Below, one piece after another: positions 11,337 to 56,600 of a DNA stretch of 56,669 bases (position 1 is its first letter; each line of letters begins with the position of its first letter). The stretch is from Gemmatimonadota bacterium (GTDB taxonomy: Bacteria > Gemmatimonadota > Gemmatimonadetes > Gemmatimonadales > GWC2-71-9). Position numbers and translations under genes: made by a program. The stretch covers positions 1-56,669 of the forward strand of contig JBDHCY010000015.1 in the NCBI GenBank assembly GCA_039591795.1, in the 5' to 3' direction. The notes under the pieces were generated by a model that saw nothing but the letters and a program-made list of their open reading frames with translations, had not been told where the DNA came from and did not search any database.

Positions 11337-11459
11337 CGCGGAAGGGGTCTAGAATCGACGCCCTTGACAACCGTGCAAAAGCACGCCACCGGGCAGACAG
11401 ACGATTTCAATTCACATCTTGTCGCCCGCCAGCACACGAACCAAATTCTGCCCGGCACT

Positions 11460-30666: not shown

Positions 30667-30854
30667 GTTGGGCAGTCAGGACGTCGGCAAAGGCGAAAGC
30701 GCCGCTGACGCAGAGAGTTCACAATCGAGTGGTGGCGCTTAACTTGCACCATTCGGTCTGGGCGCGACCGAGAAGCTGTCGCAAGAGCCGTGGGCAGCGT
30801 AAGCGTTCTTCCGCCGAGAGGGGTGTTGCCGTGGGACCGGAAGTAGTCTTGTGA
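30663..30854 (+). CDS. Possible 63-aa basic hypothetical protein
   Basis: ATGA and GTGA overlaps with both flanking genes. No recognisable motif. Confidence 0.25.
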   Translation: MSWAVRTSAKAKAPLTQRVHNRVVALNLHHSVWARPRSCRKSRGQRKRSSAERGVAVGPEVVL

Positions 30855-42367: not shown

Positions 42368-44185
42368 TCAGAACGCCCACGCCCCAGATAGGATCACCTG
42401 CCGGTAGCGGTAGTCGGCGTCTCCCGTCGCAAACGAGTTGAGGCCCGTGCTCGAGAACGCAAACGACATTCCGATCTCCCGGCTGGGGCCGATGAGATAC
42501 GCCAGTCGAGCCGATCCACGGGCGGCTGCCTTAAGGGAACCGCTTGACCCTACGCGCTGTAGGCCTGGCGCGAGCTCGGCGATGGCTACCCACGCACCGA
42601 ATTCGCGGATCCACCGCCCGCCGACCTCGAGAAGGCTGTAGAAATCCGGATTGAAGTAGCCGTCGTTTCGATCTGGCCGCATGAAGTCGACATTCGGCTC
42701 CGCGAAGCCGAAAGCGAGAAGGGTGGCACCGAAGGTCCAGGGCCGTCCCACTCGCCGGGTGACGCCGACATAACCACCGAAGCGCGAGTTCCCGAACGTG
42801 CCCTGGTAGTCCGCGTAGGCGACGCCTCCGACGAGAACCCAGCGGCGCGCCGGCTCGTAGCGACCTGACACCGCCCATTCACGTATCTCCACTCCGTTCG
42901 CTATCATCGGGGCAGTAGCGCCCAGCGAGCCGGAGCGGTAGCGCAGTGTGCCGCCCACTCCGACGTGGGTTGGGCTGGCGATCTCGGCTCGCAGCTCGGG
43001 AACGGTTCCTGAGGCGGTGGTGTCGTCACCGTCGCCAACACCTAGCCCCAGTGAGAAGGCCCATCCCCCAGCGGCATGGACCCGTCCGCTCACCAGGACT
43101 CGCCAGAAATCTCGTTCGCCTCCGAAGCCCTGTGCCGACCGTGCCGTGACCTCTGCTCCGACGTTTATCCGCGGCCGCACGTGCCAGTCTCCGCGAACGA
43201 CTACGGTTCGAATGCGATTCGAGTCGGAGTCACTCTCGTACAGCAGCGCCGGGGCGATGTGGGGCGCGAGAGCCGCAAGTGTCCACTGCCGCTCGATGCG
43301 CACATCCGGGTCGGACGGCGCGAGCCGATGCGCGTGTTCGATGACGTCGTACGCATCGCCAGGCCGTGCCTGCCACCGCAGGGTCTGGGCAAGGCCTACG
43401 AGCGAAGGGACGTCGTCGGGCCGATCACCGAGCACCGACAGCCACGCCTGCTCTGCGCCACGCAGATCGCCGCTCCAACTTCGCACGCGCGCCAGCCCAC
43501 GCTTGGCCTCTATGTTGTCAGCTTGCTGGGCCAGGACTTCGGTGTACACGGTCTCTGCGCTGTCGAATGCACCTCCCCAGGAGAGAACCTGTGCCAGGCC
43601 AAGCAGCGCCTCGAGGTCGTTTGGATCATTCGCCGCCAACGCTGCGAATGCAGTAGCCGCTTGTTCGAACCGTTTCGCCCATCCAAGGACTCGAGCACGA
43701 TCGCGGCCGATCGATCGATCGTCGGGAGCGACCTCGAGCACACGGTCGTAGGCGAGGAGCGCGACTTCAAAATCTCCGGTCCACGACGCGAACTGTGCGA
43801 GCGCCTTGTACGCCGGCAGATGGTCCGGCCGCTCGTCGATGATCTGCTCGACGGCCGCCACTGCGGCCTGCGGGTCACCTTGCCAGGCCAGCGTGCGCGC
43901 TCGATCGATTCTCCCCTCGAGGTTCTCGGGTGCGATGGCAACCAGTTGATCGAATAGTGCCAGGCTCTGGTCGTAGCGCTCAGCCCATGCGTGGATGATC
44001 GCCATTCGATGAAGCGCCCGCTGGTCTGTCGAGTCCGCGACAAGCCGCTGCGCGTACAGCCGGGCGGCCGTCTCGACGTCACCACTGTCCCAAGCCGAGT
44101 CGGCGGCCGTCTGCGCGGCGGCAGAAAGACAAAGCCCCACGGCGAGCGACAGCGCCATGGCCCCGATCCGCAGATGCCTCATCAT
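42368..44185 (-). CDS. TPR-repeat + C-terminal beta-barrel outer-membrane protein (putative polysaccharide export pore)
   Basis: Signal peptide, about 7-8 TPR-like repeats (LGLAQVLSW, GLARVRSW), a beta-strand C-terminal domain and terminal …GAWAF. ATGA overlap with the upstream stop. Confidence 0.75.
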   Translation of the reverse strand: MMRHLRIGAMALSLAVGLCLSAAAQTAADSAWDSGDVETAARLYAQRLVADSTDQRALHRMAIIHAWAERYDQSLALFDQLVAIAPENLEGRIDRARTLAWQGDPQAAVAAVEQIIDERPDHLPAYKALAQFASWTGDFEVALLAYDRVLEVAPDDRSIGRDRARVLGWAKRFEQAATAFAALAANDPNDLEALLGLAQVLSWGGAFDSAETVYTEVLAQQADNIEAKRGLARVRSWSGDLRGAEQAWLSVLGDRPDDVPSLVGLAQTLRWQARPGDAYDVIEHAHRLAPSDPDVRIERQWTLAALAPHIAPALLYESDSDSNRIRTVVVRGDWHVRPRINVGAEVTARSAQGFGGERDFWRVLVSGRVHAAGGWAFSLGLGVGDGDDTTASGTVPELRAEIASPTHVGVGGTLRYRSGSLGATAPMIANGVEIREWAVSGRYEPARRWVLVGGVAYADYQGTFGNSRFGGYVGVTRRVGRPWTFGATLLAFGFAEPNVDFMRPDRNDGYFNPDFYSLLEVGGRWIREFGAWVAIAELAPGLQRVGSSGSLKAAARGSARLAYLIGPSREIGMSFAFSSTGLNSFATGDADYRYRQVILSGAWAF

Positions 44186-46827
44186 CGCCCGTTTCCGCTG
44201 TGAACTGGGGAGTTCGAGCTCCCCTCGAAGACTTTCCTCAGGGCGTCGAACACCGGCCGACGCCGCTCCCGCCATAGCGGCTCGTTCCACGCCCGCCACG
44301 AGAACTCGGCCACGTCGAACGACGACCCAGAGCGAGGCCAAGCATACCACGCACCCTTCGACTGCACGGCCGCCACGACGCGGATGCCCGTGACCGGTTG
44401 TGCCGCCTCTTCCTCTGACAGCGTTCCGATCCAACCGCCGTCATTCACCCAATCCGGTGCGTGCTGAAGGACTCGCCGTGAGCTCGGGTCGGTCACGTTG
44501 AGGAACGCCCACGGGATGCGAATCTCGATGACCCCAGCGTCGGGCAAAGACTCCCAGAAACCGTCCGCGACAGGTGCCGACCGGAGCACGCCACGATCGT
44601 AGCCAATCGTCGCATACTCGGTCGTGTCGCGACCCACCCGCCTCCTGTTCGTGATGACCCGCAATGAGTCGAATTGGCCGTCGCTTCGCGGCGCCGACAG
44701 AAAAGGCGCATTCATCTCCCATATCAGCCGCCCGGAGAAGAAGCCTGGGGGCTCCGAACCCTCGGCCAAGGGCATGACCTGCAACCTCTCCTCGGCGGCG
44801 GGTCCAACCTCGATCGGGAGGTACCGGAACAGGCTCGCGGCCGGATCGGCCAGGAGCCGGACCCCCTCAGCCGTGGCGTGTAGCACGAGCTCCACCCCTA
44901 CGGGGAGGATCGGCCCCCGTCGGCCGGGCCAGCTGAACGATCCCGCGTCGGCCCGTATCACGTCGAAGCCGATGAAGAGGTCCTCCGGCTGCCCGTCACC
45001 GGCCTCGAAAAGGAGCCAGACCGCTGCCTCGTCAGCGAACGCGCGCAGCCCCGCTCCCGTGGAATCGGCGTAGAGGGGCTCGATCGTCTGCCATTCACCG
45101 AGCCGTTCGGCGAGCGACTCTCCTGGGAGTCGCGGCTCCGGCTCCATCGCGACCACCCCGTACGCCTGCTCGGGGTCGAGCGTGTTCAGCCAGAGCCGAT
45201 TGCGCTCCGCGGGGAGAAGAAAATCGTTGAAGAGCCAACTCTTTTTGAACCACTCGTCGATCCATGCGAAGACGACCCCACCTGCCATTCCCGCCGCGGC
45301 GATCTCGCGTGTCATGCGCACGTCGAGGTCAGCCATCGCCTGCTCGGTGTGCCCCCCGTGGTGCCAACCATCCGGGTGGAGGTGCGCAATGCCCAGACTG
45401 GCCGGTACTCCGTACTCCGCGACGAGGACCGGCAGATCGTCATGATGGCTCTTGAGATCGACCAGATACCCGAAATAGGAAGAGGGGCCTTCGGCCGAGT
45501 ATGCAGCGGCATAGCCCGGGTCGAGCACCATGAAGTCCGGGTAGTATGGATAGACGTGATATGCGGCGAAGTAGCCCGCTGGGAACGAGAAGGTCGTACG
45601 AACGAGTGACGGGTCCAGCGTCACTCCGTCATTGTCGTACTCGGCGGTCGCGGTGGGGGACGGTTCACCGAGAGCCACGCGCAGCTGCACTTCCTCCTGT
45701 GCCGTGGGCTCAGTCGGGTGCGTGAGCGGGTCGAGCGTGGGCCAGTTGGTGTAGGCGATTGGCCGTTGGGCTCCATACGTCGTCATCTCGTGCGCAATCA
45801 TCGTCTCGCACTTGGCCGCGAGCCAGACGTCCATCGCCGTCCCACCTTCGAGCCGCAGAAAGCGGCCAGACCACGCAGAAGTATCCGGCTGCCGCTCGTT
45901 ATAGACGGCCACTGAGTGAGGCTCCCACTCGCGGCCGACCACGTAGGCAAGCGTCCAGCGCGACACGTCCGCTTGGTAGCGTCCTGAGGCATGACCACGG
46001 CGCGGCTCGATGCGTGCGCGCCCGTGCACGAGGTCCACCACGCGACGGATCTCATCATCGACCTCCTGGTTCCACTCGAGGTCGTCGTAGTCGTCGTCGG
46101 GGGGGAGCTCGATCCAGACACCGTGGAGTAGCCACAGTGGGCGATCCGGGTGGGCGAGATTGTACTCCCGCAGCACCTGGTAGAAATGCGGCGGATGAAT
46201 CGTATAGAGGCGAATCGTGTTGGCGCCCATCTCACCGATAGCGGCGATCCACCGAGCGTAGACCGCCGAATCGGGGAATTGGCTCGGGAATCGCCCGGGG
46301 ACCGCGGCACCGAGGTTGACGCCATTGACGTAGAACGGCGTCCAGCCCTCGTCGGTGCGCACCTCAAACCGGTCGCCGCTCACGCGAGCGGGGTAGGTGA
46401 GGGGTGCGAGCCTCGGGAGGTATGACCGCGCCTCGGCGTTCGCCGGGTCGATGGCGAGTGTACGTTCAAAGGCGGTCCGGGCAGCTGCGTGGTCGGCCTC
46501 GCGCCACGCGATGAGACCGATCCCAACCAGAGCATCCACGACATCCGGTTCATCAGCGAGTACACCCTCGAACCAGGTGCGGGCCTCGCCGAGTTGGTTC
46601 CGACGCAGGGCTGCGTAGCCCAGTCCCGTCCGCGCCCCGGAGTGAGTCGGGCAACGGGTCGAGGCCACGGTGAATGCCTCGGTCGCGACGGTGATCTCCC
46701 CTGCCCGGTACGCCATCCACGCACTGTCGACGAGCACATCGACCAGGTAGCCACAGCCTTCCTGGGCCCTGGCAATCCCGGCGCCGAGCAGGGTGGCGAG
46801 GAGGAACACGACCGAAGCGCGGCCCAT
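44182..46827 (-). CDS. Exported TPR + clan GH-A-like TIM-barrel glycoside hydrolase
   Basis: Signal peptide, three TPRs, then GVNLG, GANTIRLYT, VGREWEP, AYHVYPYYP, VLVAEYG and FAWIDEWFK. Start placed at ATG 46827, just after the GT2 stop. Confidence 0.7.
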   Translation of the reverse strand: MGRASVVFLLATLLGAGIARAQEGCGYLVDVLVDSAWMAYRAGEITVATEAFTVASTRCPTHSGARTGLGYAALRRNQLGEARTWFEGVLADEPDVVDALVGIGLIAWREADHAAARTAFERTLAIDPANAEARSYLPRLAPLTYPARVSGDRFEVRTDEGWTPFYVNGVNLGAAVPGRFPSQFPDSAVYARWIAAIGEMGANTIRLYTIHPPHFYQVLREYNLAHPDRPLWLLHGVWIELPPDDDYDDLEWNQEVDDEIRRVVDLVHGRARIEPRRGHASGRYQADVSRWTLAYVVGREWEPHSVAVYNERQPDTSAWSGRFLRLEGGTAMDVWLAAKCETMIAHEMTTYGAQRPIAYTNWPTLDPLTHPTEPTAQEEVQLRVALGEPSPTATAEYDNDGVTLDPSLVRTTFSFPAGYFAAYHVYPYYPDFMVLDPGYAAAYSAEGPSSYFGYLVDLKSHHDDLPVLVAEYGVPASLGIAHLHPDGWHHGGHTEQAMADLDVRMTREIAAAGMAGGVVFAWIDEWFKKSWLFNDFLLPAERNRLWLNTLDPEQAYGVVAMEPEPRLPGESLAERLGEWQTIEPLYADSTGAGLRAFADEAAVWLLFEAGDGQPEDLFIGFDVIRADAGSFSWPGRRGPILPVGVELVLHATAEGVRLLADPAASLFRYLPIEVGPAAEERLQVMPLAEGSEPPGFFSGRLIWEMNAPFLSAPRSDGQFDSLRVITNRRRVGRDTTEYATIGYDRGVLRSAPVADGFWESLPDAGVIEIRIPWAFLNVTDPSSRRVLQHAPDWVNDGGWIGTLSEEEAAQPVTGIRVVAAVQSKGAWYAWPRSGSSFDVAEFSWRAWNEPLWRERRRPVFDALRKVFEGSSNSPVHSGNGR

Positions 46828-46829
46828 TC

Positions 46830-48236
46830 TCAGCCCCGGAACCCGCGGCGTCGCATCTCGCCCCAACGCTGCTCGCCACGGAGTGCATTCCAAAACCCCT
46901 TCAGGCGCCAAAAGACAGTCAACTGGCGGTACCCGAAAGGCTCGAGGAATGCGTAGAACAGCATGCGCATGAAATCGCCGAAGCGTGGATAGACACGGAA
47001 CGTGCTTTCCTCGAGAATGACAGCCCACACCGAGAGGAACATCTGGTAGCCGAGGGCCACCACGAGGAAGAGGAGCGCCACCTCGGTGTTGATGATGCCA
47101 AAGAGGGCGGCGAGAAGCGTCAGGAAGTAGCCCAGGACCTCGATGACCGGCGCGATCATTTCGCCGAAGACGAAGAATGGGAACATGACGAGTCCAGCGA
47201 GACCATAGCGCCGGTTGAGAAGCATTCCGCGGTGGGTGAGCATGGTCAGCACGAGACCACGATGCCAGCGCTCTCGCTGGCGGCCCAGCGTGCCGACGTC
47301 GGTCGGCACCTCGGTCCACGCGACGGGATCCGGAATGAACGGGATCTGGTACGGCACGCGCGTATTTCGGAGGTGCTTGTGCAACCGAACGACGAGGTCG
47401 AGGTCCTCGACGACGTTGCCAGTGGTGTACCCGCCGATCTCGAGGAGGTAGTGGCGCTGGAAGAGGCCAAACGCGCCCGAGACGATGAGGTTGCCACCGA
47501 GGCGGTTCCAGCCGAGTCGGCCGAAAAGAAACGCTCTCAGGTACTCCGGTACCTGCACGGCGGCGAGGTACTCGCGTGGGAGACGGGCGTCCGTGACCCG
47601 TGCGTGCTGAATCGCGCAGCCGTTCGCCACGCGGATCGTGCCGCCGGCAGCAGCCACGCGTGCGCCGAGGAGGAACGGGCGCGCGAGTCGAACGAGCGCG
47701 TCGGGTGTGATGATCGTGTCGGCGTCGGCAGCCACGACGAGGGGGTAGCGCGCCGCGCTGAGTCCCACATTGAGAGCGTCCGCCTTACCGCCGTTCTCCT
47801 TGTCGACGACGAGGAGATTCGAATGGGTCCGAGAGCGATAATAGCCATGGACAGGCCGCGTTTTGAGCCGACGCGGAAAGGCCGGCGGCACCTCGAAGAG
47901 CTCGAACGCCTCCATGAGGCGCTGCATCGTCCCGTCCCGCGATCCGTCGTTGATGACGATCACTTCGTGTTGGGGGTACTGCAACGACAGCTGGGCGGCG
48001 ACGCTGTCGCGGATGTTGGCCTCCATGTTGTAAGCCGGGACGATCACCGAGACCGGGGGCAGGGCCTGCGATCCGAGGTAGCGGGAGAGGTCGTCGTCGT
48101 GCGTGATCTGCCAGTGCTTCCAGATCTCGGGAATCGCGAGAAACAGCAGCAGCGCATAGAACGAGTTCAGGCCCAGGAAGTACCAGATGATGGCCCCATC
48201 GACCGTCGGTAGCAGCGCTTCGCGGATCCAGTCCAT
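46830..48236 (-). CDS. Processive membrane GT2 glycosyltransferase (PgaC/IcaA/BcsA-like synthase)
   Basis: N-terminal TM, VPAYN, NDGS, KENGGKADALN, DAD, VED, QRERW and C-terminal TMs. Start placed at ATG 48236. Confidence 0.92.
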   Translation of the reverse strand: MDWIREALLPTVDGAIIWYFLGLNSFYALLLFLAIPEIWKHWQITHDDDLSRYLGSQALPPVSVIVPAYNMEANIRDSVAAQLSLQYPQHEVIVINDGSRDGTMQRLMEAFELFEVPPAFPRRLKTRPVHGYYRSRTHSNLLVVDKENGGKADALNVGLSAARYPLVVAADADTIITPDALVRLARPFLLGARVAAAGGTIRVANGCAIQHARVTDARLPREYLAAVQVPEYLRAFLFGRLGWNRLGGNLIVSGAFGLFQRHYLLEIGGYTTGNVVEDLDLVVRLHKHLRNTRVPYQIPFIPDPVAWTEVPTDVGTLGRQRERWHRGLVLTMLTHRGMLLNRRYGLAGLVMFPFFVFGEMIAPVIEVLGYFLTLLAALFGIINTEVALLFLVVALGYQMFLSVWAVILEESTFRVYPRFGDFMRMLFYAFLEPFGYRQLTVFWRLKGFWNALRGEQRWGEMRRRGFRG

Positions 48237-48247
48237 GGTGGGCCCGG

Positions 48248-49309
48248 TTATGCCGCGTAGTCGGCGACGGCCGCCGCGCTCAGGCCGAGGATGTAATTCG
48301 CCATCTCTCGGGCGTATCGGTCGTCGCCGGCCTGGACGGCGGCGAGGATTTCGAGGCCGGGCTGGCCCAGCTGCCGCAGGGCGATCGCCGCGCGCAGCCG
48401 CACCCACCAGTTCTCATCGCTCAGAGCGCGGTGCAGCGCCGGGCACGCTTCGACGGCGCCGATCGCGCCGAGGGCTGCAGCTGCCTGTGTGCGCACCTGC
48501 CACGCGGCATCACCGAGCAGCGTGAGGAGAGCCTTCGTCGCGGCCGGATGCGGGAAGCTTCCGAGCGTTCGTGCTGCAGCGACGCGAACCTCGAGGTTCT
48601 CGTCCTTGGCGTACGGCAGCACGTACTGAAACAGCTCAGGAACGGCGAGCTCGCCCGCCAGGGTCACCCACGCCTGCCGCTGCACGGCGGCGTATTCTCC
48701 CTTGAGGCGCTCGATGAGCATGGGCCCCAGCGGCCCTCGTAGAGAGACCAGGGTGTCGAAGACAAACCCCCGCACCACCCTGGGCGCGGTGACGGCCTTG
48801 TCGAGGATCGTCGCCAGGAGATCGGGAGTGCGCACGCGAGTGAGCGCGGAGATCGCGGCGATCTGGATGGCCGGGTTTTCATCGGCCACGAGTGCACGCA
48901 CCAGATCGAGGTCGTCCTCGGTCGCCACACCCGCGAGGAGCCGAGCCGATCCGAGCCGCCGCCACCACAGGCGAGAGCGAGCATTGCGCCGAATGCGTCT
49001 CGACCATTTAGTCGGGCGGATCACGCTCACCAACTGTTCCCACTGCTCACCCTCGATCTGCGCCCCATACTGTTGGAACACCGAGGCGACCGTCGCAGGG
49101 CCCCGGCCGTCGATGTCGGCGCGGAAGTCATCGGCGCTGAGCTCACCCGCGAGCCACGCTCGGACTACTCCGACGAACTGTCCTTCGTCGACCATCGTTC
49201 GCTCGAACCGACGACGGAGCAGCCATCGGTGGGCGATCAAGAGAAACAACGTGCCGCCGAGGAAGGCGAGCTGGACCACGGCGATCACGAGGAGGACGGA
49301 GGCCTTCAT
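48248..49309 (-). CDS. Membrane-anchored HEAT-repeat protein
   Basis: N-terminal TM, then repeats D..LEVRVAAARTLG, D.AWQVRTQAAAALG and DENWWVRLRAAIAL. ATGA overlap with the regulator stop. Confidence 0.88.
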   Translation of the reverse strand: MKASVLLVIAVVQLAFLGGTLFLLIAHRWLLRRRFERTMVDEGQFVGVVRAWLAGELSADDFRADIDGRGPATVASVFQQYGAQIEGEQWEQLVSVIRPTKWSRRIRRNARSRLWWRRLGSARLLAGVATEDDLDLVRALVADENPAIQIAAISALTRVRTPDLLATILDKAVTAPRVVRGFVFDTLVSLRGPLGPMLIERLKGEYAAVQRQAWVTLAGELAVPELFQYVLPYAKDENLEVRVAAARTLGSFPHPAATKALLTLLGDAAWQVRTQAAAALGAIGAVEACPALHRALSDENWWVRLRAAIALRQLGQPGLEILAAVQAGDDRYAREMANYILGLSAAAVADYAA

Positions 49310-50835
49310 GCGGCCCCCCCGGGGCGGAACAGTCGCTCGACTTTTGCCACCACGACCGGAATGCTCACCGGCTTGACGAGGTAATCGGCCGCGCCACAAC
49401 GAAGCGCTTTGATCTGCTCGCGCTCGCCGGAGTGGACGGTCACGATGACAATCTGGAAATCCCCGGGCCGAGCACGGTGGATCTGCTGCAGTGCGCTGAA
49501 ACCGTCGAGGCCCGGCAGGTCGACGTCGAGGAGCACCACCGGCTTCCGGTCCTGTGTATCGCTTGCGAGGAGCGCATCGAGCGCTTCGCGACCGTTCGTG
49601 AATGCCTGGCACCGGAAGCCACGGTTCGTGAGTGCGTACTCGAGCATTTCGAGGAGGGCGGTGTCGTCCTCGATGAGGTAGACGTCAACCTCTGCCGTCG
49701 TCCCTCGGTGGGAGGGCGCCGCCGAGAATACATCGAGACTGCGGCCCCTCCGCACTCCCGCCAATACGGCCGCTTTGAGCTCATGTGCCCGAACGGGTTT
49801 CACCAACACTCGGTCCGCTCCTGCCTCGAACGCTTCCAGTCGGCGATGGGGATCTTCGTGGCCTGTGACCACCACGGCGGGGAGATCGCGCCATTCCGGT
49901 GAGCTGCGGAGTGCTCGGAGGATCTCTGGGCCCCGGGCGGTCGGCATCTCGAGGTCGAGGATGAGCAGGTCGGGAGGCGCGTCCGCGGCTCGGGCGAACA
50001 CCTGGAGCGGGTCGTCGAGCACTTCGACTTCCAACCCCCAGGACTCGAGCGCCGTGCGGAGGAACTTCTGGAAGCCCGGGTCGTCGTCGATCAGGAGTAC
50101 GCGCTCGCCGAGAACCTGTGTCGGGGAGAGAAGACGGGCCCACCCGTCGAAGAGGGCGTGCCCGTCGTGCGGGCCGGCGAGGACGAGATCGGCCCCGGCC
50201 CCGGCCGCCGCGATTCGCTCGGTCGCGCTGTTGGTCTCGAGCAGGGCAACGATCGGGACACCCCGCGCGGCCTCACGGAGCTTGCTGATCCAAGCGGAGT
50301 TCCCGGCAGCAGATCCCCCTCCACCCACAGCGATCAGTTGCACGCCGGCGAGCGAGCGTGAAACGGCCGCTTCGACGGAGTCAGCTGTCTCGAGTCGCCA
50401 GCCCCGAGTCGAGACGGTCTCCCAGACCATGCCGCGGACCTCGGGATCGTCGTGCACCAAGAGCGCGTGGACGCCGAGCGGTACGGCGCCATTCCCCTCC
50501 GGGCCGGTGGCAGCCGCAGCCTCTAGGGCCTCGAGCTCTGCTCGAAGGGCATCCACCTGCGTTTCGACGGGACGGTTCGTCCCGCCGTCGACCCAGCCTC
50601 CCACGAGCGTCTCGATTCGTCCGGCCACCTCACCGACCTGCCCAAAGCCCCAGGTGCCGGCGGAGCCGTGCAGCTTGTGCAGGTCCCGCCGCAAAGCGTC
50701 GAGTCGATCACGCTCGGCGCCGTGTTCGTCGCCGCTCAGCGCCTCGAGGAGCGAGCGCACCTCGGCAATCCGATCCCCAATGGACCGGCGATAGCCGTCC
50801 TGCATCCGCTTCCAATCCGTTCCAGTTGCCTGCAT
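49306..50835 (-). CDS. Hpt + three receiver-domain phosphorelay protein (no output domain)
   Basis: LHKLHGSAGTWGF (Hpt). REC1 lacks the acceptor Asp (LIAVG). REC2 LILDLEMP…KP and REC3 VLLDVDLP…KP are intact. Confidence 0.9.
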   Translation of the reverse strand: MQATGTDWKRMQDGYRRSIGDRIAEVRSLLEALSGDEHGAERDRLDALRRDLHKLHGSAGTWGFGQVGEVAGRIETLVGGWVDGGTNRPVETQVDALRAELEALEAAAATGPEGNGAVPLGVHALLVHDDPEVRGMVWETVSTRGWRLETADSVEAAVSRSLAGVQLIAVGGGGSAAGNSAWISKLREAARGVPIVALLETNSATERIAAAGAGADLVLAGPHDGHALFDGWARLLSPTQVLGERVLLIDDDPGFQKFLRTALESWGLEVEVLDDPLQVFARAADAPPDLLILDLEMPTARGPEILRALRSSPEWRDLPAVVVTGHEDPHRRLEAFEAGADRVLVKPVRAHELKAAVLAGVRRGRSLDVFSAAPSHRGTTAEVDVYLIEDDTALLEMLEYALTNRGFRCQAFTNGREALDALLASDTQDRKPVVLLDVDLPGLDGFSALQQIHRARPGDFQIVIVTVHSGEREQIKALRCGAADYLVKPVSIPVVVAKVERLFRPGGAA

Positions 50836-50895
50836 CAGGCTCCGCGCTTGTCATCGTTGCGTACGCGCAAATGATGCGATTTGCGAGATCCAGCG

Positions 50896-50910
50896 GCAAT
50901 GCGTATGCCA
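50896..50910 (-). promoter_or_regulatory. Sigma54 (-24/-12) promoter of the regulator-HEAT-GT2 operon
   Basis: Minus strand TGGCATACGCATTGC (GG-N10-GC). Predicted +1 is about 50 nt before the ATG at 50835. Confidence 0.8.
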
Positions 50911-51272
50911 CGCTCTAAGGGATAGGGATCTGTGACAACGTCGGTTTCCAGCGACATTTCAAAGCTTTATATGACAACGACTTGACACGCGCCCAGCTCG
51001 CGGCTGGCCCACCCGGTCTTGGGGGACGATCAGAACCGCGGACGCATCCCCGAAACGGTCGTTGCAAGGTGCACATGGTCATTGCGCGAAGCCTTCTCGA
51101 GGACCTGGGTGTGGCTGGCACACTACAACGATGTCCTCCGGCGTCGCTCCGAATGCTGCAACCATCCGACATTCGCGTCGAGAAACTCATCGGTTTGTTG
51201 AGCGTCTGCTGCGCTCTAATGCCCAATCCGTGCTGTTTTCATACCGATCATGGCATTTGGCACGGTCTCTCC

Positions 51273-51288
51273 TGGAATGACAGTTGCA
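51273..51288 (+). promoter_or_regulatory. Sigma54-type promoter for flp copy 1
   Basis: TGGAATGACAGTTGCA (GG-N10-GC). Confidence 0.7.
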
Positions 51289-51457
51289 ACTCGTCGCAGT
51301 CGACCGAGCGAGAACGCTGTGGCTGGCGAGATCGGTCTCGCCAATCGCCAATCGGCGACGGCCTCGTCGGTCGCAGTAACTGGGGAGGGGCGCAACCCCG
51401 AATTGGGTCGGGCGCGACCCGTTCTCACCACCGGCTGGACGGCCAGGAGGCATCATC

Positions 51458-51655
51458 ATGCAGGAGCTGTGGAACCGACTGTGGAGCGACGAGTCAGGCC
51501 AGGGGATGGTCGAGTACGCCCTCATCGTCGCGCTGGTCGCAATTGGCCTAATCGCGGTGTTCCTGTACCTCCGCAATTCCGCGGGACAGGTGCTGGACAC
51601 GGCGGCCGACTCGTTGGCGGCGCAGCCCACGGCGGGCTACGTCCCGACCCCGTAG
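51458..51655 (+). CDS. flp: Flp/Fap type IVc pilin, copy 1
   Basis: AGGAGG RBS and SG|QGMVEYALIVALVAIGLI motif. Confidence 0.95.
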   Translation: MQELWNRLWSDESGQGMVEYALIVALVAIGLIAVFLYLRNSAGQVLDTAADSLAAQPTAGYVPTP

Positions 51656-51788: not shown

Positions 51789-51804
51789 GGGAACAGGAGT
51801 TGCA
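51789..51804 (+). promoter_or_regulatory. Sigma54-type promoter for flp copy 2
   Basis: GGGAACAGGAGTTGCA (GG-N10-GC), at nearly the same distance from the flp ATG as copy 1. Confidence 0.6.
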
Positions 51805-51978
51805 TTGAGTCCACGATTGGCCGTGTGAGTTGTCGTGGCGGAGGGCGGAATCAGGTTCGCCCAAACCCGATGGCGTGGACTCCGCGGCTTGCAGCGCGAA
51901 GGCAGGTTGGAAAGCCCGAACTGGGTCGGGCGCGCAACCGATCTTCACCAACGGCCTGACGGGCCAGGAGGCATCACC

Positions 51979-52176
51979 ATGCAGGAGTTGTGGAACCGAC
52001 TGTGGAGCGACGAGTCAGGCCAGGGGATGGTCGAGTACGCCCTCATCGTCGCGCTGGTCGCAATTGGCCTAATCGCTGTGTTCCTGTACCTCCGCAATTC
52101 CGCGGGACAGGTGCTGGACACGGCGGCCGACTCGTTGGCGGCGCAGCCCACGGCGGGCTACGTCCCGACCCCGTGA
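51979..52176 (+). CDS. flp: Flp/Fap pilin, copy 2 (protein identical to copy 1)
   Basis: Same 65-aa sequence, with two synonymous differences and a different stop codon. Confidence 0.95.
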   Translation: MQELWNRLWSDESGQGMVEYALIVALVAIGLIAVFLYLRNSAGQVLDTAADSLAAQPTAGYVPTP

Positions 52177-52238: not shown

Positions 52239-52264
52239 CCCGCGACCGTGCACTGGGGGATTGA

Positions 52265-52789
52265 GTGCTCTCGATAGTAGCCAGCGTCGTGCTCGTCGGA
52301 GTGCTCCTCGGAGCGTGTTGGTTCGACGTTCGTGCGCGACGCATCCCCAATGCCCTCACGGTGGTCGGGGTGATTGCTGCGCTCGTCTTGCGCGGCTTTC
52401 TGGGTGCGGGGGCGGTGTTCGAGGGAATCGGGGGAGCTGGACTGGCGCTGCTCGTGGCGCTGCCGCCGTTTGCGCTTGGGATGCTGGGAGGGGGGGACGC
52501 GAAGTTGCTCGCGGCGGTCGGTGGGTTCATGGGCATCGACCATCTCCTTGGAGCACTGCTGGCGATTGCGGTGCTCGGCGGAGGCCTGGCTGTCTTCGAG
52601 GCATTGCGACGCCGCGTGCTGATCAAAGCCGTGGCGAACACATACGGCTTTGCAAAGCAGTGGTTGCTCCTGGGGCGCGCTGGCGGCGCCCCGACGATTG
52701 CTTCGCCGCACGCGCTCACGGTGCCGTACGGTGTGGCGATCGCAGGAGGGGCGCTGACGTGGTGGTTTCTGACGGGAGCGCAGTTATGA
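52265..52789 (+). CDS. cpaA: A24 prepilin peptidase (CpaA/TadV)
   Basis: FD…RRIPN, LGGGDAKL and VPYGVAI. Confidence 0.92.
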   Translation: MLSIVASVVLVGVLLGACWFDVRARRIPNALTVVGVIAALVLRGFLGAGAVFEGIGGAGLALLVALPPFALGMLGGGDAKLLAAVGGFMGIDHLLGALLAIAVLGGGLAVFEALRRRVLIKAVANTYGFAKQWLLLGRAGGAPTIASPHALTVPYGVAIAGGALTWWFLTGAQL

Positions 52790-53202
52790 GGATGTTCAGA
52801 CGTCGGAGTGAAGACAGCGGACAGGCGATGGTCGAGTTCGCGATCGTCCTGCCTCTGCTGCTGATGCTCATGGTAGCAGTGTTCGAGTTCGGCCGGGCAT
52901 GGAACGTCTATCAGGTGCTGACCGACGCGGCGCGGCACGCGGCTCGCAGTGCAACGGTTGCAGACCCCACGGTGACCCAGGATTCCGTCATCCAGATCGC
53001 GCAGAACGCAATGGCGCGTGGCGCAATCAACGTGAGCAAGGCCACCGTGACGGTAACGGGCTTTCGGACTGGGACAGGAACACCGGCGACGGTGACGATT
53101 CAGTTGCCGTATGAGTTCGTTGTCCTCCGGCCCTTCATGGGCTGGACCGCCGCCGAGTCCAATTTCACGCTCACGACGATGTTCACCATGCGGAACGAGT
53201 AG
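52786..53202 (+). CDS. tadE: TadE/TadG-like pseudopilin
   Basis: SG|QAMVEFAIVLPLLL…EFG…AAR.AAR. ATGA overlap with cpaA. Confidence 0.9.
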   Translation: MRMFRRRSEDSGQAMVEFAIVLPLLLMLMVAVFEFGRAWNVYQVLTDAARHAARSATVADPTVTQDSVIQIAQNAMARGAINVSKATVTVTGFRTGTGTPATVTIQLPYEFVVLRPFMGWTAAESNFTLTTMFTMRNE

Positions 53203-53213
53203 AGGGCTGCCCA

Positions 53214-54038
53214 ATGCGACAGCGACGATTGTGGGTGATCATGGTTTTGGCACTGGGCTCGGGCGGCTTCGCCGCCTTCTTCGCCCTACGCTACCTGCGT
53301 CAACAGACGCCACGGTTCATCGCGTCCGAAACGCCGCGTGCGAGCGTCGCGATCGCGGCGCGCGACATGAACCTCGGTACGATTCTCGGGCCGGAGGACG
53401 TGAAGCTCATCGACTGGCCGGAGGAGGCGGTGCCGCCCGGGTACGTGTCTTCGGCCGAGGCGATCGTGGGCCGTGGGTTGATCGCGCCGGTACGGGCCAA
53501 CGAAGTGCTTCTCGAGACGAAGCTCGCCACGAAGGATGCAGGAGGCGGCCTCGCGATCTCGATCCCGGAGGGCATGCGAGCGGTCAGCGTGCGGGTGGAC
53601 GAGGTCATCGGCGTCGCGGGCTTCGTCCTGCCCGCGACCAGGGTCGACGTCATGGTGACGCTTCCGCCCAGGCCGCCTCGCAGCGAGACGATGACGCAGG
53701 TGTTCCTCCAGAACATCCAGGCGCTCGCTGCTGGGCAGCTCGTGCAGCAGGATGCGGAAGGCAAGCCGGTGATTGTCGCAGTGATCACACTCCTCGTGAG
53801 CCCCGAACAGGGCGAGCTCCTCGTCCTCGGCGCGAACGAAGGCAAGATCCAGCTGGCACTTCGCAACACACTGGACTTGGACGATATCGAAACGCGGGGT
53901 GCGCAGGTGAGCGATCTGCTGCGCCGAATCCCGCGCGCGCCGCGCCCCAACAACACGGCACGTGTAGTGGCACGCGGCGATACGTCGACCGTCGTCGAAG
54001 CATACAAGGGCGGCGTCCGAACTCTCATCAAGTTCTAG
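53214..54038 (+). CDS. cpaB: Flp pilus assembly protein CpaB/RcpC
   Basis: SAF domain (IAARDM..G), GMRAVSV, GVAGFVLP..RVDV and LALRN. Confidence 0.95.
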   Translation: MRQRRLWVIMVLALGSGGFAAFFALRYLRQQTPRFIASETPRASVAIAARDMNLGTILGPEDVKLIDWPEEAVPPGYVSSAEAIVGRGLIAPVRANEVLLETKLATKDAGGGLAISIPEGMRAVSVRVDEVIGVAGFVLPATRVDVMVTLPPRPPRSETMTQVFLQNIQALAAGQLVQQDAEGKPVIVAVITLLVSPEQGELLVLGANEGKIQLALRNTLDLDDIETRGAQVSDLLRRIPRAPRPNNTARVVARGDTSTVVEAYKGGVRTLIKF

Positions 54039-54057
54039 GGGAAGGGGATAACCGATC

Positions 54058-55356
54058 ATGCATCGCGTAGCAGTCGAGCGTAACCCGCGCGGGCGCGGCC
54101 GCGCGTGGTGGCTCGCCCTGACGGGGCTCGGGCTCCTCGTGAGTCCTGTGACGGCGCTGGCACAGCGCGTCGTTACCGAGCCACAACAGGTGATCACTGT
54201 GTCGCTCGGCGAGTCCGCGTTGCTCGTCGAAGTGACGGCGATGCAACGGTTCTCGATCGGCGACCCATCGGTGGCGGACGCGGCCGCAGTTTCACCGAAT
54301 GAGCTCCTCATCACGGGGAAGAAACTCGGAACGACGAGCTTGCTCGTGTGGGACGCCAGCGGTGACGTGCGGATGTATTCGATTCAGGTCACCGCCGACG
54401 CACCGGCACTCGAGCGCTATCTCCGAGGCCTGTTCCCCGACGACACTGTGGCCGTCGCAGCAAGCGGCAACACGGTCACGCTGTATGGGCGCGTGCGCTC
54501 GGCCAACGTGGCCCGGCAGATCGTGCAAATCGCGGAAGGGACCGGCGCTACGGTCGTAGACCGCCTCCAGGCCCCACCGGCGAGACAGGTGGCGCTCAAG
54601 GTGCGCTTCGCCGAAGTCAGCCGTAGTGCGTCCAAGGAGATGGCTTCCCAGCTCGCGACGCTCAACCCGCACAAGCTGACAAGCGACGGCGACTGGTTCG
54701 GCGAGACGATCTCCGACGGGTTCATCAATTTTCTCCTGTCCAACGACAACGCCAGTTTCCTGGCGGCGATCAAGGTCCTGCAGTCCAACGGTCAGTTCAA
54801 GACGCTGGCCGAACCGACGCTGCTGGCCCTTCCGGATGAAGAGGCGTCATTCCTCGCGGGCGGCGAGTTCCCGTTCCCGATCGTGCAAGGCGGCACCAAC
54901 AACACGGTGACGATCCAGTTCAAAGAATTCGGCGTGAAGCTGACGTTCACTCCGAACGTGACCGAGAGCGGGAACATCCGGCTCAAGGTGGCGCCCGAGG
55001 TGTCGTCCCTCGACTTCGCCAACGGCCTGTCATTCCAGGGCTTTCAGATTCCGACGCTGCGTACACGGAAGGCGGAAACGTCAGTCGAGTTACGCGAGGG
55101 CCAGCACCTGGCGATCGCCGGCCTCATGGACAACACGCTGACCGACAACGTGACGAAGATTCCGCTCCTCGGTGACATCCCAATCCTGGGCGCGTTCTTC
55201 CGGTCACACGACGCACAACAGAACCGATCGGAACTGCTCATCGTGGTGACTCCCGCGCTCGTGACGGCCACGGCTACGGCGCCGGAGATGCCTACAGGCG
55301 AGCCGGGGACGTGGGATTGGTACGGGGCGCTCAAAGACGGACGCACTCGCAAGTAG
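54058..55356 (+). CDS. cpaC: Tad secretin CpaC/RcpA
   Basis: GKKLGTTSL, QVALKVRFAEV, LAEPTL, FLAGGEFP, FKEFGVKL and IPLLGDIPILG.FF. Confidence 0.95.
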   Translation: MHRVAVERNPRGRGRAWWLALTGLGLLVSPVTALAQRVVTEPQQVITVSLGESALLVEVTAMQRFSIGDPSVADAAAVSPNELLITGKKLGTTSLLVWDASGDVRMYSIQVTADAPALERYLRGLFPDDTVAVAASGNTVTLYGRVRSANVARQIVQIAEGTGATVVDRLQAPPARQVALKVRFAEVSRSASKEMASQLATLNPHKLTSDGDWFGETISDGFINFLLSNDNASFLAAIKVLQSNGQFKTLAEPTLLALPDEEASFLAGGEFPFPIVQGGTNNTVTIQFKEFGVKLTFTPNVTESGNIRLKVAPEVSSLDFANGLSFQGFQIPTLRTRKAETSVELREGQHLAIAGLMDNTLTDNVTKIPLLGDIPILGAFFRSHDAQQNRSELLIVVTPALVTATATAPEMPTGEPGTWDWYGALKDGRTRK

Positions 55357-55385
55357 CCGACGTGGGATTGGAGGAGGGCCGCACG

Positions 55386-56600
55386 ATGAAATGCTGGACG
55401 TCGATGGTACGCAACGAGCGAGGTGCCGCCGCCGTACTGATCGCGGTGTCAGTCGCTGCGATGCTCGGCTTCGCGGCCCTCGCCATCGATCTCGGGATGC
55501 TCTTCAAAGCCCGGGTCGACGCGCAGCGTGCGGCCGACGCGGCGGCCCTGGCCGGAGCCAGCGCATTTCTGGATTTCGACCAGATCACGGCGGTCACGCC
55601 GGCGCGGAATCGCGCAACGGAATATGGTCTACGGAACACGTTCCTCAATGGCCCCATCGACACCGGCGAGATCTACATCAAGGTCATACCCGACAGCTTC
55701 AAAGTCGGTGTGTACGTGTATCGCGACTCGGTTCAGACCTGGTTTGCCAGAATCTTCGGTATCCGGTATGTGCCGATTGGAGCATTCGCCGCCGCCGCCG
55801 CCGTGAGCGCGGGCCAGGCCAAGTGCCTCAAGCCCTGGGCCGTGCCCGACGTCTGGCACGACTACAACAGCGACACGAACAACAACCGCATGTGGGACCC
55901 GGGCGAAGAGTGGGTCTTCGGCGACGACCCCGGGGACGTCTACAAGCCGTTCAGCGGCCCTGGCGGCGCCGCTGACGAGACTGGCTACGGGAGCGAGTGG
56001 CGGAATCCGCCGTACACGCAGCCCGTCGATGACTACGGCCGGCAGATCCAGATCAAGTCGCCCGACCCCAATGACGAGTACTCCGCGGCCCCGGGGATTT
56101 TCTACCCGTGGCGGCTCCCCATCGACCCCGATCAGGAACCGTGCGACAATGGGGGCGGCGGCGGACAGGACGCCGGCGGTGCGGTATACCGGCAGAACAT
56201 CTGTAGCTGCAACAACAGCCCGGTCCAGCTCGGTGTCCCTTACGAGGTGGAGCCAGGCAACATGATCGGGCCGACGGCACAGGGAGTTGACGAGCTCATT
56301 AACGAAGATCCCAACGCCTCCTGGGACGACGCGACGAACCAGATCGTCAATTCGGATCCAAAGTTTGGGGATGCGATGAACAGCCCTCGGGTGATCAAGA
56401 TCGCGCTGATCGACCCGACGCAGATTCAGGGCTCGGGGATGCAGACGATCATGTTCAACAATTTCGCGCTGCTCTTTCTCGAGGAGCAGGCGAACAACCA
56501 GGCTCCTGTAAAGGCGCGTTTTCTGTATTACGCGTCGGGCGAAGGCTCGCCTGGATCGACGACCGGCTCGCTGGTCAAGGTCCTCCAACTCGTCAAGTAG
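55386..56600 (+). CDS. tadG: TadG-like pseudopilin/adhesin with large C-terminal domain
   Basis: ERG|AAAVLIAV…ALAIDLG…AQRAADAAALAGA. Start placed at ATG 55386. Confidence 0.85.
   Translation: MKCWTSMVRNERGAAAVLIAVSVAAMLGFAALAIDLGMLFKARVDAQRAADAAALAGASAFLDFDQITAVTPARNRATEYGLRNTFLNGPIDTGEIYIKVIPDSFKVGVYVYRDSVQTWFARIFGIRYVPIGAFAAAAAVSAGQAKCLKPWAVPDVWHDYNSDTNNNRMWDPGEEWVFGDDPGDVYKPFSGPGGAADETGYGSEWRNPPYTQPVDDYGRQIQIKSPDPNDEYSAAPGIFYPWRLPIDPDQEPCDNGGGGGQDAGGAVYRQNICSCNNSPVQLGVPYEVEPGNMIGPTAQGVDELINEDPNASWDDATNQIVNSDPKFGDAMNSPRVIKIALIDPTQIQGSGMQTIMFNNFALLFLEEQANNQAPVKARFLYYASGEGSPGSTTGSLVKVLQLVK

What the first reader, a model, noticed from the sequence alone, without database searches (positions are those of the whole stretch)
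50836..51457. Divergent sigma54 promoters couple the polysaccharide operon and the Tad pili
Seen: TGGCATACGCATTGC on the minus strand (50896-50910) and TGGAATGACAGTTGCA on the plus strand (51273-51288) face away from each other across about 360 bp. Established: sigma54 promoters need an upstream-bound enhancer-binding ATPase. Inference: one shared enhancer region may co-activate adhesive polymer and adhesive pili, making a single attachment switch. No such activator is encoded in the window.
Basis: partly seen in the sequence, partly recalled or inferred. Interest (0 to 1): 0.62.

Follow-up and report, generated by a model that had tools for sequence, protein, structure and literature searches.

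The report
Back-to-back sigma-54 promoters, polysaccharide and Tad pili
In this uncultured Gemmatimonadales bacterium, a 622-bp gap between a polysaccharide-synthesis operon and the Tad/Flp pilus genes holds two outward-facing sigma-54 promoters and a conserved central element, a known control layout that probably switches both on together.

Summary
They fit the sigma-54 -24/-12 pattern with exact spacing. Only 36 sites in the 4.76-Mb genome score as well as the weaker one, and the flp site ranks sixth. The genome has an intact rpoN and about 13 enhancer-binding proteins, none of them in the window.

Two orthologous metagenomic loci (first-gene protein 77% and 84% identical) keep the same back-to-back layout. 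In an otherwise diverged spacer, the only invariant islands are the two promoters, a central pair of 11-bp direct repeats 20 bp apart (51062-51092), the flp ribosome-binding site and the start of the minus-strand leader. Distances between the islands are fixed to within 1 nt.

The flp promoter is old. A GG[C/A]A[C/T]-N5-TTGC motif lies about 130-200 nt upstream of flp in most Gemmatimonadota loci examined, but not in Chloroflexi, Firmicutes or Actinobacteria loci. The polysaccharide-operon promoter, its 509-aa Hpt/receiver first gene and the adjacency to flp are confined to this narrow lineage.

No activator gene lies near flp in relatives. No transcript data could be obtained.

Verdict: both are very probably real sigma-54 promoters. 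A shared enhancer is plausible, at about even odds. The layout is already known (orp1/orp2, hyc/hyp, zraP/zraSR), and sigma-54 control of Flp pilin genes is also known, so novelty is modest.

The parts
50895..50910 (-). Sigma-54-type promoter of the polysaccharide operon (P_hpt): TGGCATACGCATTGCC, with GG at -25/-24 and GC at -13/-12
   Evidence: Sequence read. Scores 14.5 bits; 36 sites in the genome score as high. 16 of 17 positions are invariant in three orthologous loci.
50836..50884 (-). Predicted 49-nt leader of the Hpt/receiver gene. Positions +1 to +9 (GCAAATCGC, 50884-50876) and GCAACGA (50860-50854) are invariant. GCAAAT...ATTTGC could form a 5'-terminal hairpin (50884-50867). GGAG lies 5 nt before the ATG.
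   Evidence: Start site inferred from the -12 position. Conservation. The hairpin is seen by eye and was not tested.
51062..51092 (.). Central conserved element, the candidate enhancer (UAS): TTGCAAGGTGC-N9-TTGCGCGAAGC, two TTGCnnGnnGC direct repeats 20 bp apart. Its centre is about 193 bp upstream of the minus start and about 222 bp upstream of the flp start.
   Evidence: Apart from the promoters, the RBS and the leader start, these are the only invariant runs of 6 nt or more in the three-way alignment. Distances to both promoters are 196/196/197 and 162/162/162 nt in the three loci. The paired element is unique in the genome. It is absent upstream of flp in 19 other Gemmatimonadota loci.
51273..51288 (+). 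Sigma-54-type promoter of flp1 (P_flp): TGGAATGACAGTTGCA
   Evidence: Scores 17.2 bits, rank 6 in the genome. 16 of 16 positions are invariant in three loci. A homologous GG[C/A]A[C/T]-N5-TTGC motif lies about 130-200 nt upstream of flp across the Gemmatimonadota sampled.
51299..51457 (+). Predicted leader of flp1, about 159 nt. The 3' 70 nt are conserved and include a GGCUG...GCCAGGAGG hairpin next to the RBS.
   Evidence: Fold energy z = -2.2. Consensus structure is weak, with no net covariation support. A long leader is kept in relatives, 128-217 nt.
51458..51655 (+). flp1, a 65-aa Flp prepilin
   Evidence: PF04964, E = 5e-9.
51789..51804 (+). Weaker sigma-54-like motif in front of flp2: GGGAACAGGAGTTGCA (11.9 bits), 175 nt before the flp2 ATG
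   Evidence: L034 also has a motif (TGGCCTTCCGGTTGCA) upstream of its second flp.
51979..52176 (+). flp2, a tandem duplicate encoding the identical 65-aa protein. The DNA is 95% identical over 51394-51653 versus 51912-52174.
52265..56600 (+). Start of the Tad cluster: prepilin peptidase (52265-52789), TadE-like (within 52261-53202), CpaB/RcpC (53214-54038), secretin CpaC/RcpA (54058-55356), TadG-like (55311-56600). The contig ends at 56669.
   Evidence: Pfam hits.
49306..50835 (-). First gene of the minus operon: 509-aa Hpt + receiver-domain protein with no output domain
   Evidence: PF01627 and PF00072 (two receiver stretches matched). Only two orthologues were found among 5.8 billion proteins.
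42368..49309 (-). Rest of the polysaccharide operon: HEAT-repeat protein (48248-49309), GT2 synthase-like glycosyltransferase (46830-48236), 881-aa TPR protein (44182-46827), TPR protein (42368 to about 44185)
   Evidence: Pfam. The same gene order is found in L034. A REC/HEAT/GT2 core recurs in every fetched locus but one, which has REC and GT2 without a HEAT match; GT2 homologues occur in 219 of 401 family genomes.

Best explanation
The 622-bp gap is a bidirectional sigma-54 control region. RNA polymerase carrying RpoN binds two outward-facing -24/-12 promoters. One (50910-50895, minus strand) drives the Hpt/receiver - HEAT - GT2 - TPR - TPR polysaccharide operon from about 50884. The other (51273-51288, plus strand) drives flp1, and probably flp2 and the Tad genes, from about 51299 through a leader of about 159 nt. 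Both promoters stay closed until an AAA+ enhancer-binding protein opens them. That protein most likely binds the central pair of 11-bp direct repeats (51062-51092) and loops to both promoters, so polymer synthesis and pilus production come on together. The activator is encoded elsewhere in the genome. Eight of the ten activators tested are NtrC-type proteins with a receiver domain, so the Hpt/receiver protein made from the minus promoter could feed phosphate back to it. Shown here: the motifs, their conservation, the fixed geometry, and the presence of rpoN and activator genes. Inferred: the start sites, sigma-54 dependence, that the central element binds an activator, co-activation, and any feedback. 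My odds: both promoters real, about 0.85 (flp about 0.9, the hpt promoter about 0.8); the central element a shared enhancer, about 0.5.
For: Motif quality and rarity. Intact RpoN with activator-interaction, core-binding and DNA-binding domains. About 13 PF00158 genes; 8 of 10 tested are REC-AAA+-HTH_8. No sigma-70-like promoter faces either gene. Other high-scoring sites in this genome precede plausible sigma-54 targets, namely a type IVa pilin gene and a REC-type activator gene, so the motif appears to be in use. Footprinting: in the alignment of the window with L034 and L035, the promoters and the central repeats are invariant while the spacers are 47-64% identical when aligned and 33-47% in register, against 27% for random sequence. 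Spacer lengths are 180/180/181, 9/9/9 and 151/151/151 nt, whereas the two transcribed leaders in the same loci vary by 5-6 nt. The flp motif is present at 128-217 nt upstream in 11 of 21 family loci and at 98-306 nt in 10 of 13 further Gemmatimonadota loci. The chance rate is 0.7% per 100 nt per strand. It is absent from almost all Chloroflexi, Firmicutes and Actinobacteria flp loci. In the genus with the closest flp within the sampled family (G003), flp is again back-to-back with a strong sigma-54 motif, there in front of a secreted SLT lytic transglycosylase. Precedents for one activator serving divergent sigma-54 promoters: orp1/orp2 (PMC3897727), and hyc/hyp and zraP/zraSR (PMC3844500). 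Precedent for a sigma-54 regulator targeting Flp-type pilin genes: PMC3333781.
Against: There are no transcript, start-site or binding data. Only three loci carry the junction, so the footprint is thin, and equal spacer lengths could partly reflect limited time for indels. The central element is a direct repeat, whereas many activators bind inverted repeats. It is not found upstream of flp in other Gemmatimonadota, nor upstream of any other sigma-54 site in this genome, so it could serve only one promoter or bind a different kind of regulator. The flp -24 element reads TGGAAT, with A where C is usual, and the minus-strand site has C after TTGC where A or T is usual. No activator gene is linked to the locus. 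IHF-like matches in the spacer (50957-50987) are not conserved in position.
Confidence: 0.6

Rival explanations
1. Both are real sigma-54 promoters but are controlled independently. The central repeats serve only one of them, or bind a repressor or another response regulator, and the other promoter uses a poorly conserved site or a different activator. Adjacency would then not mean co-regulation.
For: The flp promoter is order-wide, but the central element is lineage-specific. The polysaccharide-operon promoter is a recent acquisition. The genome has about 13 activators. The element is a direct repeat rather than a palindrome.
Against: Only one conserved block lies between the promoters, and its distance to both is fixed. 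An activator bound about 190-220 bp from two open-facing sigma-54 promoters normally reaches both, as in orp, hyc/hyp and zra (PMC3897727, PMC3844500).
Confidence: 0.25
2. One or both motifs are non-functional look-alikes, and transcription starts from unrecognised sigma-70 or ECF-type promoters of this phylum.
For: Promoter rules for Gemmatimonadota are not established. The sigma-70 scan is a simple E. coli-type consensus. Each motif departs from the consensus at one position.
Against: Both motifs are invariant in three loci amid diverged sequence. The flp motif is conserved across the order at a consistent distance, against a 0.7% chance rate. The orientation is correct and rpoN is present.
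Confidence: 0.1
3. The recurring GGCA-N8-TGCC upstream of flp is a palindromic binding site for a dimeric transcription factor, not a sigma-54 promoter.
For: Many relatives read GGGCAT-N5-TTGCC, which is nearly symmetric, and their reverse strands also score moderately.
Against: Conservation is asymmetric: the left half is GGCA[C/T] and the right half TTGC[C/G/A]. The window's lineage has TGGAAT...TTGCA, which is not palindromic yet is invariant. Forward scores exceed reverse scores in all but two loci (mean 10.0 against 6.4 bits).
Confidence: 0.05

Closest known systems
Divergent orp1/orp2 operons of Desulfovibrio vulgaris Hildenborough, co-activated by sigma-54 and the single activator DVU2106/OrpR (PMC3897727)
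   Same: Two outward-facing sigma-54 promoters share one intergenic region, with activator sites between them, so two operons are expressed together.
   Different: In orp the activator gene lies in the cluster, its sites are palindromes, and IHF sites were shown by experiment. Here the activator is unlinked and unknown, the candidate site is a 20-bp-spaced direct repeat, no IHF site is conserved, and the cargo is a polysaccharide operon and Tad pili.
hyc/hyp (FhlA) and zraP/zraSR (ZraR) divergent sigma-54 promoter pairs of E. coli and Salmonella (PMC3844500 and the references it cites)
   Same: Back-to-back -24/-12 promoters a few hundred bp apart, or fewer, are driven by one activator.
   Different: The functions differ (hydrogenase; zinc and envelope stress). 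The activators are known and, for zra, encoded in one of the two operons. The phylum is different.
DVU2114-dependent Flp-type pilin promoters of Desulfovibrio vulgaris (PMC3333781)
   Same: A sigma-54-dependent regulator targets Flp-type pilin genes that lie ahead of cpa/tad-like assembly genes.
   Different: The DVU2114 gene number places the activator close to its pilin targets. In Gemmatimonadota no activator gene lies within about 40 kb of flp, and the leader is unusually long at about 130-200 nt.
PilR/PilS-sigma-54 control of type IVa pilin genes (Pseudomonas, Myxococcus, Geobacter; cited in PMC3333781)
   Same: A pilin gene sits behind a -24/-12 promoter with upstream activator sites. 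This genome also has a sigma-54 motif before a type IVa pilin gene.
   Different: The pilus class differs (Flp/Tad, type IVc), and no PilS/PilR pair is adjacent.

Membership tests
Sigma-54 (-24/-12) promoter | GG and GC dinucleotides separated by exactly 10 nt within a TGGCAC-N5-TTGCW-like sequence | tested here: met
   TGGCATACGCATTGCC and TGGAATGACAGTTGCA, scoring 14.5 and 17.2 bits with an approximate matrix. Each departs from the consensus at one position.
Sigma-54 (-24/-12) promoter | The organism encodes RpoN with activator-interacting, core-binding and DNA-binding domains | tested here: met
   A 485-aa ORF on contig C83 carries PF00309, PF04963 and PF04552.
Sigma-54 (-24/-12) promoter | AAA+ enhancer-binding proteins are present in the genome | tested here: met
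   About 13 strong PF00158 hits. Eight of ten tested are REC-AAA+-HTH_8. None is in the window.
Sigma-54 (-24/-12) promoter | Intergenic position, oriented towards a downstream gene, and conserved in orthologous loci | tested here: met
   The minus site is 60 nt from its ATG and the plus site 170 nt from its ATG. Both are invariant in L034 and L035. The flp site is conserved across Gemmatimonadota.
Sigma-54 (-24/-12) promoter | Transcription starts about 12 nt after the GC and depends on rpoN and an activator | not testable with these tools
The organism is uncultured.
Bidirectional sigma-54 control region with a shared enhancer (orp, hyc/hyp, zraP/zraSR type) | Two outward-facing sigma-54 promoters in one intergenic region | tested here: met
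   362 bp lie between the motifs. The arrangement is kept in L034 and L035 with 361 and 362 bp.
Bidirectional sigma-54 control region with a shared enhancer (orp, hyc/hyp, zraP/zraSR type) | Activator-binding sites between the promoters that are needed by both | tested here: inconclusive
   A candidate exists: invariant 11-bp direct repeats at 51062-51092 at fixed distances from both promoters. Binding and function are untested, and the element is not seen at other flp promoters.
Bidirectional sigma-54 control region with a shared enhancer (orp, hyc/hyp, zraP/zraSR type) | Cognate activator encoded in or beside the regulated cluster (usual, not obligatory) | tested here: not met
   No PF00158 hit falls on contig C15. 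There is none within about 40 kb of flp in six relatives where an activator gene shares flp's contig, and none on the flp contig of two more.
Bidirectional sigma-54 control region with a shared enhancer (orp, hyc/hyp, zraP/zraSR type) | IHF or other bending site between enhancer and promoter (common, not obligatory) | tested here: inconclusive
   Two one-mismatch IHF-like matches at 50957-50987 are not conserved in position in L034 or L035 (alignment).
Tad/Flp pilus locus | Flp prepilin with the G/xxxxEY motif, followed by prepilin peptidase, TadE/TadG pseudopilins, CpaB and a secretin | tested here: met
   PF04964, PF01478, PF07811, PF13400, PF16976 and PF00263. The ATPase and platform genes lie beyond the contig end.

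The most novel reading that the evidence does not exclude
In one narrow Gemmatimonadales lineage, a widespread REC-HEAT-GT2 polysaccharide operon was placed beside flp and drawn into the ancient sigma-54 control of the pilus. It gained its own -24/-12 promoter, and the region gained one central enhancer held at fixed distances from both promoters. The operon's first gene also grew into a 509-aa Hpt/receiver protein. Because that protein is made from the activated promoter, it could pass phosphate back to a receiver-type activator. That would make a self-reinforcing, possibly bistable, attachment switch for pili and matrix together.
Probability: 0.15. Interest if true: 0.6.

Novelty: new member of a known kind. 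Interest (0 to 1): 0.38.

Why it matters
Gemmatimonadota are abundant soil bacteria about whose gene regulation almost nothing is known. This locus yields a concrete, testable model: two promoters, one 31-bp candidate enhancer and fixed distances, linking pilus production and matrix synthesis. It also shows that sigma-54 control of flp, with a long leader, is a trait of the whole order. The comparison with relatives appears to catch regulatory rewiring in progress: a common polysaccharide operon seems to have gained a sigma-54 promoter only where it sits beside flp. The general principles are already established (sigma-54 governs the cell exterior, PMC3162934; divergent sigma-54 pairs share activators), so the gain is a new example in a little-studied phylum, not a new mechanism.

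Tried and rejected

(2) More syntenic loci. An exact-pattern scan of metagenome contigs for the central element found nothing. A protein-guided scan with the three Hpt/receiver orthologues also found nothing. The search of 5.8 billion proteins gave only two orthologues. The footprint therefore rests on three loci.

(3) A linked activator: none in the window or near flp in relatives.

(4) A shared upstream motif among flp promoters of the order. K-mer counting gave only generic GC-rich words, and the TTGCnnGnnGC repeat does not recur.

(5) Copies of the central element elsewhere in the genome. The paired element occurs nowhere else. The single 11-mers also occur at one and five other places, counts of the order chance allows for 11-mers in 9.5 Mb (about 2), and no copy lies beside one of the listed high-scoring sigma-54 sites.

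(6) Sigma-54 promoters in front of homologous REC-HEAT-GT2 operons in 20 other genomes: none convincing, except a variant (GGCAYGRAACGTGCG) in one genus.

(7) A conserved RNA structure or riboswitch in the flp leader. The only Rfam hit is a sub-threshold c-di-GMP-II match on the wrong strand (E = 0.22). The consensus fold has no net covariation support.

(8) Compensating indels in the spacers. In-register identity is too uniform to tell indels from substitutions, so I claim only that length is preserved.

(9) Naming the polymer: PDB matches to the GT2 and TPR proteins were uninformative.

(10) A 9-mer shared with the upstream region of the short Hpt-REC operon of G417 did not recur in 19 other loci, so I treat it as chance.

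Full report
**The observation**

The window is the whole of contig C15 of a 4.76-Mb, 554-contig assembly with 65% G+C. Record titles of the closest flp loci place it in Gemmatimonadota, order Gemmatimonadales.

TGGCATACGCATTGC(C) runs on the minus strand from 50910 to 50895. TGGAATGACAGTTGCA lies on the plus strand at 51273-51288. They face outward with 362 bp between them. Both sit inside the 622-bp gap between the ATG of a minus-strand gene (50835) and the ATG of flp (51458). Each has GG and GC separated by 10 nt, as in TGGCAC-N5-TTGC. The predicted starts are therefore 50884 and 51299.

**Is it more than chance?**

- The 1-mismatch consensus gives 6 hits in the window, against 2.0 +/- 1.3 in shuffles.
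- I wrote an approximate weight matrix from my own knowledge of the published consensus. With it, only 36 sites on both strands of the genome reach the score of the minus site, and the flp site ranks sixth.
- Other top sites precede plausible sigma-54 targets: a type IVa pilin gene and a receiver-type activator gene. Further top sites precede lon, dnaK and an FtsX-like permease gene.
- The genome has an intact 485-aa RpoN with all three domains.
- It has about 13 enhancer-binding proteins, and 8 of 10 tested are REC-AAA+-HTH_8. None is on this contig.
- A simple scan found no sigma-70-like promoter facing either gene.

**The genes**

The minus strand carries five genes:
- a 509-aa protein with an Hpt domain and receiver domains (Pfam matches two receiver stretches);
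- a HEAT-repeat protein;
- a GT2 glycosyltransferase with hits to the processive-synthase families;
- two TPR proteins.

The plus strand carries flp1 and a tandem duplicate, flp2, which encodes the identical protein. These are followed by a prepilin peptidase, a TadE-like protein, CpaB/RcpC, a secretin and a TadG-like protein. The contig ends there.

**Conservation at the junction**

A search of 5.8 billion proteins found only two orthologues of the 509-aa protein, at 84% and 77% identity.

- The contig of one orthologue (L034) shows the same divergent flp and the same five-gene operon.
- The other contig (L035) is short but covers the whole gap.

In the three-way alignment, the invariant runs of 6 nt or more within the gap are these:
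- the flp ribosome-binding site and an adjacent 6-nt run (CGGCTG, 51432-51437) in the flp leader;
- the flp motif (16 of 16 positions);
- two 11-mers, TTGCAAGGTGC (51062-51072) and TTGCGCGAAGC (51082-51092), which are direct repeats of TTGCnnGnnGC 20 bp apart;
- the minus-strand motif (16 of 17 positions);
- the first nine bases of the predicted minus-strand transcript;
- a GCAACGA in that leader.

The sequence between these islands is 47-64% identical when aligned. In register it is 33-47% identical, against 27% for random sequence.

Yet the distances are fixed:

| Segment | Window | L034 | L035 |
|---|---|---|---|
| flp motif to first repeat (start to start) | 196 | 196 | 197 |
| repeat to repeat (start to start) | 20 | 20 | 20 |
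| second repeat to minus-strand motif (start to start) | 162 | 162 | 162 |
| flp leader (motif start to ATG) | 172 | 177 | 172 |
| minus-strand leader (motif start to ATG) | 74 | 71 | 77 |

The two transcribed leaders in the same loci vary in length, while the upstream spacers do not. With three loci this suggests a length constraint but does not prove one. I could not show compensating indels.

**The flp promoter is old**

Across the family, 11 of 21 flp loci from other genomes carry GG[C/A]A[C/T]-N5-TTGC at 128-217 nt before flp. A match of that strength is expected by chance in 0.7% of 100-nt stretches per strand.

Among named species representatives, 10 of 13 Gemmatimonadota loci have such a motif at 98-306 nt. 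Chloroflexi, Firmicutes and Actinobacteria flp loci almost never have one.

The conservation is asymmetric, and the window's sub-lineage keeps a non-palindromic TGGAAY variant. Both points argue against a palindromic transcription-factor site.

In G003, the genus with the closest flp among the sampled family genomes, flp is again back-to-back with a strong sigma-54 motif (TGGCACAGCGGTTGCC). There it precedes a secreted SLT lytic transglycosylase gene.

**The polysaccharide side is recent**

GT2 homologues are common in the family: 219 of 401 genomes. I examined 20 homologous loci. Nearly all have a smaller REC or Hpt-REC gene followed by HEAT and GT2, and none has flp nearby.

Most have no convincing sigma-54 motif. 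The exception is a variant, GGCAYGRAACGTGCG, in one genus.

The genome with the closest flp overall (88% identical) has only the short Hpt-REC form, not next to flp and with no motif.

So three features go together in this lineage alone: the sigma-54 promoter, the enlarged first gene and the adjacency to flp. The central repeats are likewise absent upstream of flp in 19 other Gemmatimonadota loci, and the pair occurs nowhere else in this genome.

**Mechanism**

The best reading is a bidirectional sigma-54 control region. Closed RpoN-polymerase complexes sit at both promoters. An unlinked activator, probably of the NtrC type, binds the central repeats about 190-220 bp from each start and opens both by looping.

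An activator bound there would be expected to reach both promoters, as in the orp1/orp2, hyc/hyp and zraP/zraSR pairs (PMC3897727, PMC3844500).

My odds:
- both promoters real: about 0.85;
- the central element is a shared enhancer: about 0.5.

The main rival is independent control, in which the central element serves one promoter or binds another kind of regulator.

The long flp leader may add post-transcriptional control, but the structural evidence is weak.

**Comparison with what is known, and novelty**

- Sigma-54 as a controller of pili, exopolysaccharide and other surface structures is an established theme (PMC3162934).
- A sigma-54 regulator that targets Flp-type pilin genes is known in Desulfovibrio (PMC3333781).
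- Earlier notes from this scan report similar flp promoters in other phyla (unchecked leads).
- Divergent sigma-54 pairs sharing one activator are well known.

New here are the phylum, the cargo pairing (matrix polymer with Tad pili), the absence of a linked activator, and the comparative evidence that the polysaccharide operon was drawn into the system only where it sits beside flp. I rate it a new member of a known kind, of moderate-to-low interest.

**Limits**

- Two metagenome scans added no loci.
- The weight matrix is approximate.
- The polymer made by the GT2 enzyme is unknown.

Noticed in passing
window 51394-51653 and 51912-52174: flp is tandemly duplicated. The two copies encode identical 65-aa prepilins and are 95% identical in DNA, including about 65 nt of leader. 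Each copy has its own sigma-54-like motif about 170-175 nt upstream. No terminator is predicted between them.
   Followed up: partly
L036 (G003:C125) 10195-10210 (-) and 10791-10806 (+); gene 10915-11472: In a related genus, flp is back-to-back with a strong sigma-54 motif (TGGCACAGCGGTTGCC) in front of a 185-aa secreted SLT-domain lytic transglycosylase. This may be a pilus-dedicated cell-wall hydrolase co-regulated with flp.
   Followed up: partly
genome contigs C76:21267-21282 (+) and C69:3082-3097 (-): Sigma-54-like motifs (15.3 and 16.0 bits) lie 55 and 20 nt upstream of dnaK and lon. This hints at sigma-54-dependent heat-shock or protease genes in this organism.
   Followed up: no
genome contig C1:74750-74765 (-): The sigma-54-like motif CGGCATGAGCGTTGCT lies 58 nt upstream of a type IVa pilin gene (GFTLIELLIVV N-terminus). 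Both pilus classes may therefore be under sigma-54 control.
   Followed up: no
window 30733-30748 (+): TGGCGCTTAACTTGCA lies in the intergenic gap 102 nt upstream of a PF00144 (serine beta-lactamase family) gene at 30851-31990. It could be a third sigma-54-type site in the window.
   Followed up: partly
window 50867-50884 (-): The predicted 5' end of the minus-strand transcript can form a terminal hairpin, GCAAAT-CGCATC-ATTTGC. Its first nine bases are invariant in the three loci. It may be an mRNA-stabilising 5' stem-loop or a promoter-proximal element.
   Followed up: no
L138 4846-4861 and L141 4396-4411 (genus g14 of the family): The homologous REC-HEAT-GT2 operons of two species of one genus share GGCA[C/T]G[G/A]AACGTGCG about 230 nt upstream of the REC gene. 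This has sigma-54 spacing with GTGC at the -12 element, so some other lineages may also use sigma-54 for this operon.
   Followed up: partly
window 50957-50987: An AT-rich patch between the central element and the minus-strand promoter holds two one-mismatch IHF-like matches. These are 2 of the 10 matches in the whole window, but they are not conserved in position in the two orthologous loci.
   Followed up: partly
L069 (Candidatus Riflebacteria MAG), 51 nt upstream of flp: A strong sigma-54 motif (TGGTACGTCACTTGCA, 16.6 bits) precedes flp in a Riflebacteria genome. This is another phylum with probable sigma-54 control of flp.
   Followed up: no
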